Assembly (NCBI GenBank): GCA_016906335.1
Contig: JADEYG010000012.1
Location: 558,001-622,000, forward strand
DNA from: Novakomyces olei
Taxonomy: Eukaryota
Length of the DNA stretch: 64,000 nt
Direction: 5' to 3'
Every line of letters starts with the position of its first letter. Position 1 is the first letter of the stretch. Under the pieces are notes generated by a model. The model saw only the letters and a list, made by a program, of their open reading frames with translations, ran no database searches and was not told the origin of the DNA. A program made the translations under genes and the position numbers. Positions 1 through 57,800 of the stretch are shown one piece after another.

Positions 1-703
1 CATCAGCCCTGACCTTACGGCCAAGCCAAAGGATCAGCAAAGCTTTGCTCGATCACTAGTGCAGAGCCATGCATTGTTCAATGCACTGAAACGGGAGGCA
101 CAGAGCCTTGCACGCTACGGGGTCACTTGTGGTGATTCTTCTTTTGTGATACCCATCGATCAATCGCTAGTTCTTAAAGCGCAATTAACGCCCTTCTCCA
201 GCAGCAGGCCAGTAGGCCCGGATCAAGACGCTTACTGGACCCGGTGCCTTGGCCTGTTCGAAACATTGGTTTACACTCTACAGGCACTTCCAATGTTCCC
301 AGAGAGAAGGCTTCTCTTGACACTACGTTCGCTATTGTACCATCGACGACAAATTCTGGCAGCGGAAGGCCAGCTCGCTCGAGTTTTGGCGGGCGAAAAC
401 AAAGTCACTGGCCAGATCAAGCGTCGATATTACTCTAATCTAGAGTTTAAGTCGTCGCAAGATTTCAAGTCGGTTGTGGCGCAATTATTTCATTCGTCCG
501 TAGTGGAATCATCGCTGGAGATCGATGTTGGAAACGCGACGGTCGAATTCGTGCTGCGGACCAGTACTGGCAACGAAAACATAGCGCCCATACAGATTGT
601 GTTTGTACCACAGGAGGGTTCTAAACGGGAGCTGGTGAGCTGGAATGAGGCAGATATAGTGGATATATTGACATGGGTCTCCACACCTTTGACAGAGGCA
701 TGA
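1..703 (+). CDS. MED17: Mediator subunit Med17/Srb4, C-terminal part (5'-truncated by window edge)
   Basis: Frame is open from the window start. ALFNALKREAQSLARYGV resembles the conserved LF.EL.REAR.L..YGV segment of fungal Med17. Identification rests on that one motif. Confidence 0.5.
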   Translation, partial: ISPDLTAKPKDQQSFARSLVQSHALFNALKREAQSLARYGVTCGDSSFVIPIDQSLVLKAQLTPFSSSRPVGPDQDAYWTRCLGLFETLVYTLQALPMFPERRLLLTLRSLLYHRRQILAAEGQLARVLAGENKVTGQIKRRYYSNLEFKSSQDFKSVVAQLFHSSVVESSLEIDVGNATVEFVLRTSTGNENIAPIQIVFVPQEGSKRELVSWNEADIVDILTWVSTPLTEA

Positions 704-869
704 AATAAACAAAACAAAATAAAATAAAATAAAATAAAATAAAATAAAATAAAATAAAATAAAATTAAATAAAATAAAATAAAATAAAATAAAATAAAAT
801 AAAATAAAATAAAATAAAATAAAATAAAATAAAATAAAATAAAATAAAATAAAATAAAATAAAATAAAT
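703..869. repeat. (AAAAT)n microsatellite starting at the Med17 stop codon
   Basis: Direct reading: about 30 near-perfect pentamer units. Confidence 0.98.
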
Positions 870-975
870 CGTCTCTGCAATATTTGTATGCAAATGTTTT
901 CGGGCTGGACAGCGTAGTTAACTATACTTGACAATGAAACGCTGTGTTGTCGTATAAGCATCGCGGACCCCATAG

Positions 976-998
976 GGTTAGGGTTATTAACCCTAACC
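976..998. promoter_or_regulatory. Palindromic telomere-repeat box GGTTAGGGTTA-T-TAACCCTAACC
   Basis: Perfect 11-bp inverted repeat built from TTAGGG units, upstream of the MYST gene. Function is inferred. Confidence 0.4.
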
Positions 999-1110
999 AT
1001 AAAGAACTCTCGGCGAAGCGAGAGTAGTGGTAAACAGTGAAAACGAGGGCTCCACTCAAGATACGCGCCGCGTATTCAGGCTCCATTCGTCCCAAAAGAC
1101 ATGCATCGGG

Positions 1111-1989
1111 ATGAAGCATGTTTTTTTTGCAAACAGCTTAATTGCTGATACCTTTGCTTCCCCATATCCCATAAAGTCAGAGAATGACGCGCTATTTATT
1201 TGCCATCGATGTTTCAAATACACACAAGACACCGCCGCTTTCTGCCAGCATGAAGTACGCAAACAATTGTGGTCTGTAGCTAATTGAGAAGGCATTTTGC
1301 AAGACCGCTTTTACTTTGCCCGGACAGGTAGTTTATCGGGATGGCAAACGCTCTGTTTTCAAATTGGATGGTCTAGTACACAAGGTAAGTATAGACCTTT
1401 GCTTTCTGATGACTAATTTTAGCTCTTTTGCCAAAACCTGTGCTTACTAGCAAACCTTCTCTTGGAGCAGAAATATGTGCATTTCAACATTGAAGATTTT
1501 TACATTTTTCTGCTTGTCGAAGAGAAGGATTCGCGTATTGTTGGGTTCTTCTCAAGGGAAAAGGTTTCATGGTATAATTTCAATTTGGCTTGTATTGTCG
1601 TATTTCCAGAGTTCCGTGAACGCGGGTACGGCTGGTTTTTAATTGCCCTTAGTTATGCTATATCCCGTCGTGAAGGCCTTGTAGGATCGCCCGAAGAACC
1701 AATCTCCGAGCTTGGCCTTTTGGGGTTTCGTAGCTACTGGAAATATGAAGTTTCCCGGACCATTCTTGCCCTGTCCCGAGCTTCTGCGTTTACCATGAGC
1801 TCAATAACCGAAAAGTCTGGAATGAGGGAAGATCATGTGATATTTGCTCTTCATTCGACTGGAGCCCTTCTTGGCTATGACAAGACAAAGCAGACCATTG
1901 CCGTCTCGCGACCTATCTTGGAGTCTTGTTATGCCAAGCTGCAAAAGAAAATCAAGTGCCGTCTGGACGAATCGTGCATCTCCATATGA
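1111..1989 (+). CDS. Minimal MYST-family histone acetyltransferase (Sas2/Mst2-like), 3 exons; start uncertain
   Basis: Introns 1255-1291 (37 nt) and 1385-1422 (38 nt) join SPYP..FICHRCFKY..H (C2HC finger), LFCQNLCLLA, NLACI, RERGYG and GSPEEPISELG in frame. Confidence 0.85.
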
Positions 1990-55674: not shown

Positions 55675-56457
55675 ATGAAGCCTATGCTTAGAAGAACGAT
55701 TGCTATGAACGGACGTATGGGCTTTTTTAACACATCAACGAGTCAGTTGCCGATGCTGGCCAGACCGAACCTTGCGGCTTCCTTTACCGCCAACCCATCT
55801 CAGCTTTCGCCGCTGGAAACACCGGATTTGCCTGTGGATATCAGAGAGCCAAAGCAACGTAAAACACATGAAGGCCGCGACTTGCTCAAGAAGCCAAAGC
55901 TGTTTGAATTCGAAAAGAATCTCCAGCCAGTGAGTCCTTTTGCCATCTACATTTCAGATGTGAGCAAGGTTCGCCGTGTTGTGCCTAAACGCCGCACAGA
56001 GGAGGACGCGGATATCGGAGTTGTTGCAAAGGAGTACCAGCTTCTAAGTCCTGCTGAGCACGAGGCTCTTGTGCGCCGATCTCAACAGAACCGTGAGCTC
56101 AACGAGCGCCAATTGACGGAGGGAGTGCATAGCCTTTCTCCGGAGGACGTTTATCTCGAAAACGAACGCCGCGTCAAATGGAACCGCCAGAACCCGGGCA
56201 AAAAGCACGTTAAGCCCATCAAGGATAAGCGTGTACCCTCTCGCCCTGCATCCGCTTGGCTTCTTTTCCTGGCCAGCGAGCGGGCCAAAGCCAACCCTAC
56301 CGGTGGTATCCGTGAGCAAAGCGGGTTCGTAAAGCTCACATCGGCCAAATGGCGGGATATGACGGATGATCAAAAACAGTACTTTAAAGAGGAGAGCCGT
56401 AAGCAGAGCGAGTCTTATAAGGAGTTCAAGAACAGAGCTCACCACGTAACCGCTTGA
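55675..56457 (+). CDS. HMG-box protein, probably mitochondrial nucleoid-type (mtHMG1/HmgB-like)
   Basis: Presequence-like N-terminus, a degenerate first HMG box (PVSPFAIY..YQLLSPAE), linker SPEDVYLEN..IKDKRVP, and a canonical box RPASAWLLF..KWRDMTDDQKQYF. Confidence 0.75.
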   Translation: MKPMLRRTIAMNGRMGFFNTSTSQLPMLARPNLAASFTANPSQLSPLETPDLPVDIREPKQRKTHEGRDLLKKPKLFEFEKNLQPVSPFAIYISDVSKVRRVVPKRRTEEDADIGVVAKEYQLLSPAEHEALVRRSQQNRELNERQLTEGVHSLSPEDVYLENERRVKWNRQNPGKKHVKPIKDKRVPSRPASAWLLFLASERAKANPTGGIREQSGFVKLTSAKWRDMTDDQKQYFKEESRKQSESYKEFKNRAHHVTA

Positions 56458-57038
56458 GATGACGTTTGATTGGGACTAGTCTTCCGCTTTTATCTGCTCT
56501 ATTTGCGCTGTTATTTTTGTTTTGGTTCGGCTTTTTGTCTTGTTATGCCTTGATTTTTCACGAGTGAAGTAGGGCTTTTTGAAAAGTCAGACCGCTTAAT
56601 CCTTTTTGCTGCGTGTATTTATATAAAAATAAAAATATTTATATATATTCATATATATATTTTATTTTTATTTTTATATATACTATTTATTTATTGATAT
56701 ATGTGCTCACGCTTTTGTTTCCCTGTACACGGGTTTAGTTTTTCAATGTACATAATATCAGTGCACAGGTAATACATGTTTATCAAACTTGGATCTGTCC
56801 AAACGTAATTACTGTACCTCTCTTGAAACAGAGCTCTATCTTGCAAGAGCCGTATGCCATATTCCGACGATTCATACAGCCAAGGCTTCTACTGCAGTGT
56901 ATAGCACATATATCAAAAAGTCCTTCTATTTAACAACAAAACCGTGGCAAACAGCACCTCGCAAAACCAGCCGATAATTGGCAACTAAAGACTAACAGAA
57001 ACCAGAGACTTTCCTACTAAACACCTCATCCTCTGCAC

Positions 57039-57545
57039 CTACTGCCGTGACCAGTAGACAAGAGCAAAACTCGCTAGCGCTGGGATATCCGCCAAAACGG
57101 TTCGAAAAGCATGAGTACGAAGCCATTTGCGTTGCTGGCTTATATTTACAAGTGTCTCTTCCTCAACGGTGGGCTTTTCATCTGCTGCAATTGCCTTTAT
57201 ATTTGCCGCGACGGCGGGAGCAAAAGCAAAATGGAGCAGTGAGAAGAACATTCCACTAATGCCAGCCCACCATGGCCAAGAGCGAACGGGCAATTCGCTC
57301 ATAGTGTAAAGCGCACCAAAGACGTTGGTTAGTCCAATTGCTACAATGGTAGAAAGGCCAGCTGTTAAATGATGTCGCCACCAAAGTTTCAGTACGGCTG
57401 CGGTACTCTGTGCATCTTCCTCCGAAGCAGCTAGAAAACTGCGAAAAACAGTAGTCTCCACAGCCGCATAAAATACTCCGCAGGTCGCTGAAAGTAAAGG
57501 CACTACTGCGCGATTTGCGCTCAGTCCGACGACGATCACGTCCAT
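57039..57545 (-). CDS. 168-aa integral membrane protein (about 4 TM segments, unknown function)
   Basis: ATG-initiated ORF with hydrophobic segments. The H..F.P and W...H..RT..AD pattern recalls small fungal DUF1772-like membrane proteins. Confidence 0.65.
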   Translation of the reverse strand: MDVIVVGLSANRAVVPLLSATCGVFYAAVETTVFRSFLAASEEDAQSTAAVLKLWWRHHLTAGLSTIVAIGLTNVFGALYTMSELPVRSWPWWAGISGMFFSLLHFAFAPAVAANIKAIAADEKPTVEEETLVNISQQRKWLRTHAFRTVLADIPALASFALVYWSRQ

Positions 57546-57594
57546 TCTAACGTAGATGTGGGGTTTGCCTGTAGACTAATGAGCTGATAATCGA

Positions 57595-57800
57595 ATATTA
57601 TTATTATTATTATTATTATTATTATTATTATTATTATTATTATTATTATTATTATTATTATTATTATTATTATTATTATTATTATTATTATTATTATTAT
57701 TATTATTATTATTATTATTATTATTATTATTATTATTATTATTATTATTATTATTATTATTATTATTATTATTATTATTATTATTATTATTATTATTATT
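57595..57800. repeat. (TAT)n microsatellite in the divergent promoter of the membrane-protein gene and ATG12
   Basis: About 68 perfect units. Confidence 0.98.

What the first reader, a model, noticed from the sequence alone, without database searches (positions are those of the whole stretch)
703..57800. Nucleosome-sized pure A/T microsatellites occupy promoter cores, especially bidirectional ones
Seen: ten long near-perfect tracts with unrelated units (AAT, AAAT, AAAAT, TTTATTA), mostly 110-225 bp, none in coding sequence. Four fill roughly half or more of a short divergent promoter: ATG9/COG6 5241-5400, POM152/LENG1 26411-26634, SMD1/HPC2 40515-40657, membrane gene/ATG12 57595-57800. Two more end 33-67 nt before an ATG (SMC6, VPS74). 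Degenerate A/T tracts occupy equivalent positions elsewhere (10612-10740, 14995-15035, 29335-29365, 45590-45685, 54960-55075). Known: A/T-rich tracts disfavour nucleosomes. Inference: this genome may build nucleosome-depleted promoter regions or origins out of microsatellites, where unit identity is irrelevant and length is constrained and potentially tunable.
Basis: partly seen in the sequence, partly recalled or inferred. Interest (0 to 1): 0.75.

Follow-up and report, generated by a model that had tools for sequence, protein, structure and literature searches.

The report
Long A/T-only microsatellites in non-coding DNA
Ten long, nearly pure A/T microsatellites are real and make up much of the spacer DNA between and inside genes of a compact fungal genome, but they sit in introns and at gene ends as well as in promoters, so they look like general A/T filler, not a dedicated promoter device.

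Summary
The ten tracts exist as described (114-338 bp, 93-100% pure, units AAT, AAAT, AAAAT, AAATAAT; 2.9% of the window). None is coding.

The promoter label fits only part of them:
- Four lie in divergent promoters.
- Three lie in head-to-tail spacers. One of these starts at a stop codon.
- One lies between two convergent 3' ends.
- Two are almost the whole of an intron.

Counts per compartment match the available non-coding space (multinomial p=0.26). The excess in divergent promoters is only a trend (P=0.06-0.08). Five of nine divergent promoters carry no A/T tract above chance.

Spacers that hold a tract have little other DNA (median 156 vs 428 bp, p=0.02-0.17 depending on gene starts). 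A published occupancy model also ranks all ten among the eleven deepest predicted nucleosome minima, including the intronic and convergent ones.

Best reading: slippage-made A/T-only repeats tolerated in any non-coding DNA, acting as generic, probably nucleosome-poor spacer. Yeast promoter repeats already show this principle, so this is an extreme example of a known kind. Nucleosome maps, transcription start sites, strain variation and read-level length checks could not be tested.

The parts
703..868 (.). (AAATA)33, 166 bp. Head-to-tail spacer. It starts at the last base of the TGA stop (701-703) of a Med17-like gene and ends before a MYST acetyltransferase gene whose start lies somewhere in 869-1111. 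The A-rich strand is the sense strand of both genes and carries AATAAA once per unit.
5229..5402 (.). (ATTTATT)25, 174 bp. Divergent promoter: 79 nt from the ATG9 ATG (5149, minus strand) and 93 nt from the COG6 ATG (5496). It is 50% of the 346-bp spacer.
19021..19134 (.). (TAT)38, 114 bp. Head-to-tail spacer on the minus strand: 33 nt upstream of the SMC6 ATG (18987) and 106 nt downstream of the stop of a DUF1749 gene (19241).
26414..26635 (.). (AAATA)45, 222 bp. That gene has no Pfam match here. The tract is 52% of the 430-bp spacer.
33609..33765 (.). (ATA)52, 157 bp, 100% pure. Head-to-tail spacer: 511 nt after the stop of a Myb-domain gene and 67 nt before the VPS74 (GPP34) ATG at 33833.
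35139..35304 (.). (TTTAT)33, 166 bp. Convergent spacer: 201 nt after the VPS74 stop (34937) and 262 nt after the stop (35567) of the complex I 20-kDa subunit gene. No promoter is available here.
36968..37143 (+). (TTAT)44, 176 bp. It forms 83% of a 212-nt intron (36947-37158; GTAGGC ... CTAAT ... CAG) of a DUF1264 gene. Only 36 nt of the intron are not repeat.
40515..40657 (.). (ATT)48, 143 bp, 100% pure. Divergent promoter: 57 nt from the SMD1 ATG (40457; 14-nt first exon) and 78 nt from the HPC2 ATG (40736). It is 51% of the spacer.
43598..43935 (-). (TAAA)85 with AATT blocks, 338 bp, 93% matches. It forms 93% of a 365-nt intron (43580-43944; GTATGT ... TTTAAC ... TAG on the minus strand) that splits the AAA domain of a Vps4-like ATPase gene. 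The sense RNA reads (UUUA)n.
57596..57811 (.). (TAT)71, 216 bp. Divergent promoter: 50 nt from the ATG (57545) of a small membrane-protein gene and 23 nt from the ATG12 ATG (57835). It is 75% of a 289-bp spacer, leaving 73 bp of other DNA.
10616..10730 (.). Degenerate A/T tract (94-bp pure run) in a head-to-tail spacer (NYN-domain gene / mitochondrial carrier gene). Possibly a decayed repeat.
45588..45685 (.). Degenerate TA-rich tract (60- and 37-bp pure runs) in a head-to-tail spacer (AAA ATPase / Mago-binding protein gene).
39131..39234 (+). Degenerate A-rich tract (49-bp pure run) inside a predicted intron (39115-39352) of a prenyltransferase beta-subunit gene.
56616..56702 (.). Degenerate TA-rich tract (34- and 32-bp pure runs) in a convergent spacer (HMG-box gene / membrane-protein gene).

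Best explanation
These are true microsatellites, made and kept pure by replication slippage. They are tolerated wherever an A/T-only sequence does no harm, which in this compact Taphrinomycotina-type genome means any non-coding DNA: divergent promoters, head-to-tail spacers, tail-to-tail spacers and intron interiors.

They are absent from coding sequence because they would encode stops or homopolymeric peptides. Only strand-asymmetric units that cannot pair with themselves (A2-4T types) have grown long. Self-complementary (AT)n and homopolymers have not.

Where a tract sits, it supplies most of the spacer length, and little other DNA remains. By composition it should be poor in nucleosomes and easy to melt. 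On the A-rich strand it carries poly(A)-signal-like words.

So it probably serves as generic filler at both the 5' and 3' ends of genes, and not as a promoter-specific module.

Shown: existence, purity, placement, lack of a mobile-element flank, lack of strand self-structure, and short remainders. Inferred: the slippage origin, nucleosome depletion, and any role as spacer, promoter gap or terminator.
For: - Ten tracts, 93-100% pure, with degenerate edges and compound blocks typical of natural repeats.
- Placement: 4 divergent, 3 tandem, 1 convergent, 2 intronic.
- Expected counts from non-coding base pairs are 1.6 / 2.9 / 1.7 / 2.1 (plus 1.6 unassigned), against 4 / 3 / 1 / 2 / 0 observed; multinomial p=0.26.
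- The introns carrying tracts have canonical splice signals and join Pfam domain halves in frame.
- Remainders: intergenic median 156 bp (n=8) against 428 bp in tract-free spacers (n=20), p=0.018. Intron remainders of 36 and 27 nt are shorter than the smallest of the other 23 predicted introns, 41 nt.
- The flanks share only 11-13 nt chance matches, so there is no common element.
- Single strands of 4 of 4 unit types tested fold with a minimum free energy of 0.
- The longest homopolymer is 10 bp and the longest perfect (AT)n is 14 bp.
- All ten tracts, including the intronic and convergent ones, have predicted intrinsic nucleosome scores of -5.3 to -8.5. The window mean is 0.03 and the lowest value in long coding regions is -1.22 (formula from PMC2808325).
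- Degenerate A/T tracts in other spacers and introns fit a cycle of birth, growth and decay.
Against: - There is a trend towards promoters: 4 of 9 divergent against 1 of 10 convergent spacers, and P(4 or more divergent)=0.056-0.077. With only ten tracts, a real two-fold enrichment could not be detected.
- The short remainders are what selection for a repeat-built promoter would also predict. In divergent promoters the separation is complete (73-208 against 367-764 bp, p=0.016).
- The remainder test weakens with other gene starts (p=0.04-0.17).
- The gene models come from my own splice-aware script and Pfam, without RNA data. Several models were visibly wrong (MYST, ATG9, ELYS, the Mago-binding gene, ATG12).
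- Two regions (12035-13013 and 20446-22520) were left out of the intergenic table.
- The nucleosome model is used far outside its training range and is dominated by G+C content.
Confidence: 0.55

Rival explanations
1. The tracts are selected promoter modules, especially for bidirectional promoters. They create the nucleosome-depleted region. Unit identity is irrelevant and length is constrained or tunable.
For: - 7 of 10 tracts lie directly upstream of a start codon, 23-119 nt away.
- 4 of 9 divergent spacers carry one, against 1 of 10 convergent.
- Tract-bearing divergent promoters are the shortest, with totals of 278-430 against 367-764 bp (p=0.032), and keep 73-208 bp of other DNA (p=0.016).
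- Predicted nucleosome scores are extreme.
- There is a precedent in S. cerevisiae: tandem repeats enriched in nucleosome-free promoter regions, with repeat number changing expression. This comes from Vinces et al. 2009 as described in passages of the review PMC3899988; the original paper was not held.
Against: - 3 of 10 are where no promoter exists: two introns and one convergent spacer.
- One abuts a stop codon, so it must lie in or at a 3' UTR.
- The enrichment is not significant: p=0.26 overall, 0.056-0.077 for divergent, Fisher 0.37 and 0.19.
- None of the 5 tract-free divergent promoters has an A/T-only run above 19 bp, and only 3 of 20 tract-free spacers have one of 30 bp or more.
- Lengths of 114-338 bp show no sign of constraint.
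Confidence: 0.25
2. The tracts are binding sites for the origin recognition complex and act as replication origins of the fission-yeast type, where an AT-hook-bearing Orc4 binds asymmetric A/T tracts in nucleosome-free DNA.
For: - The organism groups with Taphrinomycotina. Its CHD1 core is 72-76% identical to those of Schizosaccharomyces, Protomyces, Pneumocystis, Neolecta and Saitoella.
- All ten tracts are strand-asymmetric, with 64-80% of one base, and far exceed the 30 bp reported as essential for S. pombe origin elements.
- S. pombe origin-positive intergenic regions are 59% divergent (PMC7574548 passages; PMC3446301 passages).
Against: - S. pombe pre-replication-complex sites prefer long intergenic regions, median 1466 against 277 bp. 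Here the tract-bearing spacers are 230-735 bp between coding sequences, UTRs included.
- Two tracts lie inside transcribed introns.
- One tract per 6.4 kb is denser than origins need to be.
- No 1-kb window exceeds 66% A+T.
- Whether this genome's Orc4 has AT hooks is unknown, because the gene is not in the window.
Confidence: 0.08
3. The abundance and length reflect a lineage-wide repair weakness. For example, poor removal of 3-7 nt loops would mean the tracts are purely mutational and have no function at all.
For: - Every long tract has a unit of 3, 4, 5 or 7 nt.
- The tracts are very pure and bimodal in length: 23 bp or less, or 102 bp or more, of perfect repeat.
- They occur in every tolerant compartment.
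- In powdery mildews, loss of mismatch-repair genes goes with longer microsatellites of all unit sizes (PMC8597960 passages).
- That loop repair by unit size depends on Msh3 in yeast is recalled, not checked here.
Against: - The hallmark of the mildew case, many long mononucleotide runs, is absent. The window has 11 runs of 8 or more, the longest 10.
- G/C-containing repeats have not grown; the longest is 31 bp.
- The short remainders suggest the tract DNA counts towards a needed spacer length.
- Repair genes cannot be examined from this window.
Confidence: 0.2
4. The tract lengths, or some tracts, are assembly artefacts such as collapse or arbitrary gap filling at repeats longer than the reads.
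For: - Six of ten perfect stretches fall between 143 and 175 bp, close to common short-read lengths.
- No reads are available to check.
Against: - Lengths vary with no hard cap: 102-206 bp perfect, and 338 bp in one compound tract.
- The edges are degenerate and internal variant units occur, as in natural repeats.
- The flanks are unique, and genes and splice sites across the two intronic tracts are intact and in frame.
Confidence: 0.05

Closest known systems
Tandem repeats in nucleosome-free regions of S. cerevisiae promoters (Vinces et al. 2009, seen only through passages of the review PMC3899988)
   Same: Both are A/T-rich tandem repeats just upstream of genes. Both are expected to exclude nucleosomes, and repeat number is a possible tuning knob for expression. 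This matches 7 of the 10 tracts here.
   Different: Here the tracts are much longer and purer (102-206 bp perfect) and strictly A/T-only. They make up 21-75% of the spacer and occur equally in introns and a convergent 3' spacer. Nucleosome depletion and expression effects are untested.
Poly(dA:dT) tracts as nucleosome-excluding promoter elements (Iyer and Struhl 1995, and Kaplan et al. 2009, as cited in PMC3899988; Tillo and Hughes 2009, PMC2808325: passages and Methods section 8 read)
   Same: Both are A/T-only, strand-asymmetric sequence with very low predicted intrinsic nucleosome occupancy.
   Different: These are not homopolymers. A-runs are 2-4 bases, broken by T at every unit, and the longest homopolymer in the window is 10. 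The rigidity argument for poly(A) applies at most to the AAAAT and AAAT types. For AAT, only the G+C term of the model applies.
A+T-rich replication origins of Schizosaccharomyces pombe (PMC7574548 and PMC3446301, passages)
   Same: Both are asymmetric A/T tracts of 30 bp or more in nucleosome-poor intergenic DNA, with a preference for divergent spacers, in a related fungal lineage.
   Different: S. pombe origins sit in long intergenic regions of 500-1000 bp of high A+T. Here the spacers are short, two tracts are intronic, and the density is one per 6.4 kb. ORC binding is untested.
Microsatellite elongation after loss of mismatch-repair genes in powdery mildews (PMC8597960, passages)
   Same: Both show microsatellites unusually long for a fungus. 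For scale, that paper lists 1,028 trinucleotide repeats of 5 or more copies in a 41.8-Mb control genome. This window has 8 in 64 kb, four of them with 38-71 copies.
   Different: There is no proliferation of mononucleotide runs here, and only A/T-only units are long. The repair gene content is unknown.
A/T-only simple repeats filling the non-coding DNA of Dictyostelium and Plasmodium genomes (recalled; the Dictyostelium genome paper was not held)
   Same: In both, non-coding simple repeats consist almost only of A and T and are found in intergenic DNA and introns alike.
   Different: Those genomes are about 78-81% A+T overall. This window is 55% A+T with coding regions near 50% G+C, so the tracts stand out as islands.

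Membership tests
Microsatellite (short tandem repeat) | Head-to-tail copies of a short unit (here 3-7 bp) with high identity | tested here: met
   10 of 10 tracts: 25-85 copies, 93-100% matches; perfect stretches of 102-206 bp.
Promoter tandem repeats that set nucleosome-free regions (S. cerevisiae type) | Located in a promoter, upstream of the transcription start | tested here: inconclusive
   7 of 10 lie directly upstream of a start codon (23-119 nt). 3 of 10 do not (two introns, one convergent spacer). Transcription starts are unknown.
Promoter tandem repeats that set nucleosome-free regions (S. cerevisiae type) | Nucleosome depletion over the repeat in vivo | not testable with these tools
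   Only a sequence-based prediction was possible: scores of -5.3 to -8.5 against a window mean of 0.03. This is an extrapolation beyond the model's training range.
Promoter tandem repeats that set nucleosome-free regions (S. cerevisiae type) | Repeat number varies between strains and changes expression | not testable with these tools
   No second strain, no related eukaryotic genome and no expression data are available.
Poly(dA:dT) nucleosome-excluding tract | Long homopolymeric A (or T) run | tested here: not met
   The longest homopolymer in the window is 10. A-runs within the tracts are 2-4 bases.
Fission-yeast type A+T-rich replication origin | Asymmetric A/T tract of at least 30 bp | tested here: met
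   10 of 10: pure A/T runs of 109-254 bp with 64-80% of one base on a strand. The criterion is from PMC7574548.
Fission-yeast type A+T-rich replication origin | Sits in a long, transcriptionally quiet intergenic region (median 1466 bp in S. pombe) | tested here: not met
   The eight intergenic tracts sit in spacers of 230-735 bp between coding sequences. Two tracts are in introns.
Fission-yeast type A+T-rich replication origin | ORC with AT-hook Orc4; origin activity | not testable with these tools
   Orc4 is not in the window and no eukaryotic genome collection was available.
A-rich microsatellite derived from a retroposon poly(A) tail or other mobile element | A shared element flanking the A-rich strand | tested here: not met
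   All-against-all blastn of 300-bp flanks of the 10 loci gave only six 11-13 nt matches with E=0.02-0.33.
Mismatch-repair-loss microsatellite elongation (powdery mildew type) | Proliferation and lengthening of mononucleotide runs | tested here: not met
   The window has 11 runs of 8 or more, the longest 10. The feature is from PMC8597960.
Mismatch-repair-loss microsatellite elongation (powdery mildew type) | Loss of mismatch-repair genes | not testable with these tools
   Only 64 kb of the genome is available.

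The most novel reading that the evidence does not exclude
In this fungal lineage, long A/T-only microsatellites are an interchangeable, selected building block of gene boundaries. They replace unique promoter, terminator and intron-spacer DNA, leaving as little as 73 bp of other sequence between two divergent start codons and 27 nt in an intron. 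They set nucleosome-free gaps, possibly ORC-binding sites as well, and copy number acts as a fast-mutating regulator of expression.
Probability: 0.15. Interest if true: 0.7.

Novelty: new member of a known kind. Interest (0 to 1): 0.4.

Why it matters
If the tracts really stand in for ordinary spacer DNA, they give a very clean natural test. The question is whether a promoter gap, a terminator region or an intron interior needs any specific sequence beyond being A/T-only and of a certain length.

The membrane-gene/ATG12 promoter would be an ideal test object. It has 216 bp of (TAT)n and only 73 bp of anything else between two start codons.

The tracts would also be highly mutable sites next to housekeeping genes. 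That bears on expression variation between strains, on assembly quality, and on their use as genetic markers.

If instead they are plain slippage products, they are chiefly a warning for annotation and assembly of this genome.

Tried and rejected
- **Mobile-element or retroposon-tail origin:** rejected. The flanks of the ten loci share nothing beyond 11-13 nt chance matches.
- **Hairpin or cruciform formation as the common property:** rejected. Single strands of the four unit types fold with a minimum free energy of 0, no better than shuffles.
- **RNA genes in the gene-poor stretches:** none found. No tRNA and no Rfam family at gathering score.
- **Codon-bias scoring to find unannotated genes:** too weak in this genome to resolve short exons. 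I used Pfam on 471 stop-to-stop frames and a splice-aware script of my own. That script gave visibly wrong models for MYST, ATG9, ELYS, the LITAF-like gene, the Mago-binding gene and ATG12, and these models were not used for intron counts.
- **Start of the MYST gene:** unresolved. The ATG at 934 opens only a 7-codon frame.
- **Comparison with orthologous loci of relatives:** not possible. The only genome collection open holds bacteria and archaea, and the species' own proteins are not in the protein database (best POM152 hit 34% identity).
- **Papers:** Vinces et al. 2009 and the Dictyostelium genome paper were not held.
- **Literature searches for this phenomenon in the lineage found nothing on point:**
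  - Taphrinomycotina with microsatellites: 8 papers, none about such tracts.
  - Bidirectional promoters, microsatellite and nucleosome-depleted: 2 unrelated papers.
  - Taphrinomycotina with simple sequence repeats and intergenic: 0 papers.
  - Two general searches gave no close case.

Full report
**Observation.**
- Lengths are 114-338 bp (mean 187, sd 62, median 170) and purity is 93-100%.
- Together they are 1872 bp: 2.9% of the window and about 9% of its non-coding DNA.
- The units fall into four classes: AAT (four tracts), AAAT (two), AAAAT (three) and AAATAAT (one).
- The window is 44.7% G+C, so the tracts cannot be chance.
- The length distribution is two-peaked. Perfect stretches per locus are 102-206 bp, while the next independent A/T-only perfect repeat is 23 bp.
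- The longest G/C-containing repeat is 31 bp, the longest homopolymer 10, and the longest perfect (AT)n 14 bp.

**Context.**
- Pfam scans of 471 stop-to-stop frames give a dense map of housekeeping genes, many with introns.
- The POM152 protein finds its best relatives in Savitreella and Protomyces at only 33-34% identity.
- The CHD1 core is 72-76% identical to Schizosaccharomyces, Protomyces, Pneumocystis, Neolecta and Saitoella.
- So the window comes from an early-diverging ascomycete of Taphrinomycotina grade whose own proteins are not in the database.
- There is no tRNA and no Rfam family.

**Where the tracts sit.**
- *Four are in divergent promoters.*
  - ATG9/COG6: 79 and 93 nt from the two ATGs, 50% of 346 bp.
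  - SMD1/HPC2: 57 and 78 nt, 51% of 278 bp. The SMD1 start is a 14-nt first exon at 40457.
  - A small membrane-protein gene and ATG12: 50 and 23 nt, 75% of 289 bp.
- *Three are in head-to-tail spacers.*
  - 19021-19134 lies 33 nt before the SMC6 ATG.
  - 33609-33765 lies 67 nt before the VPS74 ATG.
  - 703-868 begins at the last base of the stop codon of a Med17-like gene. It must therefore be in or at that gene's 3' UTR, and its sense strand carries AATAAA in each unit.
- *One is in a convergent spacer.* 35139-35304 lies between the stops of VPS74 and the complex I 20-kDa subunit gene, 201 and 262 nt away.
- *Two are introns.*
  - 36968-37143 is 83% of a 212-nt intron of a DUF1264 gene.
  - 43598-43935 is 93% of a 365-nt intron that splits the AAA domain of a Vps4-like ATPase.
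  - Both have normal splice and branch signals and in-frame joins that restore the Pfam domain.
The four left unplaced are the ones that do not fit the title.

**Is there a promoter preference?**
- I scored 28 intergenic regions. Two stretches with unclear gene content, 12035-13013 and 20446-22520, were left out.
- Tracts occur in 4 of 9 divergent, 3 of 9 tandem and 1 of 10 convergent regions. Fisher p is 0.37 for divergent against the rest and 0.19 for promoter-bearing against convergent.
- By base pairs, with introns taken as 3.1-5.0 kb, the expected counts are about 1.6 divergent, 2.9 tandem, 1.7 convergent, 2.1 intronic and 1.6 unassigned. The observed counts are 4, 3, 1, 2 and 0.
- P(4 or more divergent) is 0.056-0.077, P(7 or more promoter-bearing) is 0.08-0.14, and the overall multinomial p is 0.26.
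- So there is a trend but no demonstrated enrichment, and ten events give little power.
- Tract-free spacers mostly have no A/T tract at all. Only 3 of 20 have an A/T-only run of 30 bp or more, and none of the 5 tract-free divergent promoters exceeds 19 bp, about the chance level. The genome therefore does not generally build its promoters from such tracts.

- Spacers that carry a tract are not longer than those that do not (median 318 against 428 bp, p=0.53).
- Once the tract is removed, the remainder is short: median 156 against 428 bp, p=0.018, or 0.0495 without three long uncertain regions.
- Among divergent promoters the separation is complete: 73-208 bp (n=4) against 367-764 bp (n=5), p=0.016.
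- The result weakens if other start codons are assumed (p=0.04-0.17).
- The same holds in introns. The non-repeat remainders, 36 and 27 nt, are shorter than the smallest of the other 23 predicted introns, 41 nt (about seven ATG9 introns not counted).
- Simple insertion at random would predict remainders as long as, or longer than, tract-free spacers. So the tract DNA seems to count towards a needed spacer length.
- This fits a promoter module, but it fits a generic filler equally well, because it is also seen in introns.

**Physical properties.**
- The ten tracts reach -5.3 to -8.5 and rank among the eleven deepest minima of the window. The window mean is 0.03 (sd 1.38), and long coding regions average 0.64 with a minimum of -1.22.
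- Degenerate tracts follow: -5.8 at 10684 (deeper than the 19021-19134 tract), -5.2 in the prenyltransferase intron, -5.0 at 45612 and -4.8 at 56651.
- Tract-free divergent promoters reach only -1.3 to -3.1.
- The intronic and convergent tracts score as low as the promoter ones.
- This is extrapolation beyond the training range, and the model is dominated by G+C content, so it shows plausibility only.
- Single strands of the four unit types are predicted to be unstructured (minimum free energy 0). Hairpins or cruciforms are therefore not the shared property. The absence of long self-complementary (AT)n fits survival of repeats that cannot pair with themselves.

**Other origins considered.**
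- *Mobile element.* The flanks share nothing, so no mobile element or retroposon tail is involved.
- *Replication origins.* The fission-yeast origin model matches in one feature: asymmetric A/T tracts of 30 bp or more, which bind Orc4 there. S. pombe origin-positive regions also prefer the divergent arrangement, but no such preference is shown here. The model does not match in the preference for long intergenic regions, median 1466 against 277 bp (passages of PMC7574548 and PMC3446301). Two tracts are inside introns.
- *Repair defect.* A mismatch-repair defect of the powdery-mildew kind (passages of PMC8597960) should bring many long mononucleotide runs, and these are absent. A defect limited to larger loops cannot be excluded.
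- *Assembly artefact.* This is unlikely for the existence of the tracts, given degenerate edges, variant units and intact genes across them. Exact copy numbers remain unverified.

**Comparison and novelty.**
- The principle is already described for S. cerevisiae: tandem repeats in promoters lie in nucleosome-free regions and repeat number modulates expression. This is Vinces et al. 2009, seen only through the review PMC3899988.
- What is unusual here is degree. The tracts are strictly A/T-only, perfect over 102-206 bp, occur once per 6.4 kb and make up most of several spacers and two introns, all in a genome of moderate base composition.
- My searches found no report of this for the lineage.
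- I file it as a new, extreme member of a known kind.

**Limits.**
- Gene starts, introns and the class of some spacers rest on Pfam and my own splice-aware script, without RNA evidence.
- Only one 64-kb window was available.
- No related eukaryotic DNA could be fetched, because the only open genome collection is bacterial and archaeal. Conservation, polymorphism, nucleosomes, transcription starts and origins therefore stayed unchecked.

Noticed in passing
window 976-998, 31874-31881, 37795-37802, 8934-8941: The telomere-like word GGTTAGGG occurs 5 times against 0.93 expected (none of 100 shuffles reached 5). Four of the five are intergenic, including an inverted pair just right of the 703-868 tract and one in the MAM33/Myb divergent promoter. 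It may be a binding site for a TTAGGG-binding Myb-type factor.
   Followed up: partly
window 22521-30347: Three nuclear-pore-related genes lie within 8 kb: POM152 (22521-26324, minus strand), a gene rich in SAFGQ-type FG repeats (about 27792-29227, minus strand; no Pfam match) and an ELYS-domain gene (29595-30347, plus strand).
   Followed up: no
window 20446-22520, repeat at 21531-21762: A 2.1-kb stretch has no recognisable gene, tRNA or Rfam family. It holds a 72-bp unit repeated 3.2 times at 88% identity.
   Followed up: no
window 54956-55063: A 12-bp unit (TATCGATTATTT) is repeated about 8.7 times in the divergent promoter between the long DEAD-box helicase gene and an HMG-box gene. It contains the palindrome ATCGAT and is not A/T-only. 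It may be an array of factor-binding sites.
   Followed up: no
window 35480-35536 and 38316-38394: Two further short-unit arrays lie in spacers. A 16-bp unit repeats 3.6 times just downstream of the complex I subunit gene's stop. Another 16-bp unit repeats 5 times about 100 bp upstream of the prenyltransferase ATG.
   Followed up: no
window 44591-44653, 44964-45081, 45816-45903, 54651-54769: In-frame 15-bp and 6-bp repeats inside coding regions give low-complexity peptide repeats. These are NERSN and SGGQV repeats in the AAA ATPase, DKTR-type repeats in the Mago-binding protein, and an RD/RE-rich N-terminus in the DEAD-box helicase.
   Followed up: no
window 50822-51326: A small two-exon gene is predicted. 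It begins MGACTSK and has a weak match to the small VCP-interacting protein family (E=0.002, below the Pfam cut-off). Its predicted intron (51023-51158) holds a degenerate A/T tract.
   Followed up: partly
window 31261-31371 and 5739-5910: Shorter A/T-only repeats (24-32 bp runs) sit in predicted introns of the MAM33 and COG6 genes. They show the same tendency at smaller scale.
   Followed up: partly
window 934-957: A 7-codon upstream open reading frame lies between the 703-868 tract and the MYST acetyltransferase coding region. The true start of that gene is unresolved.
   Followed up: partly
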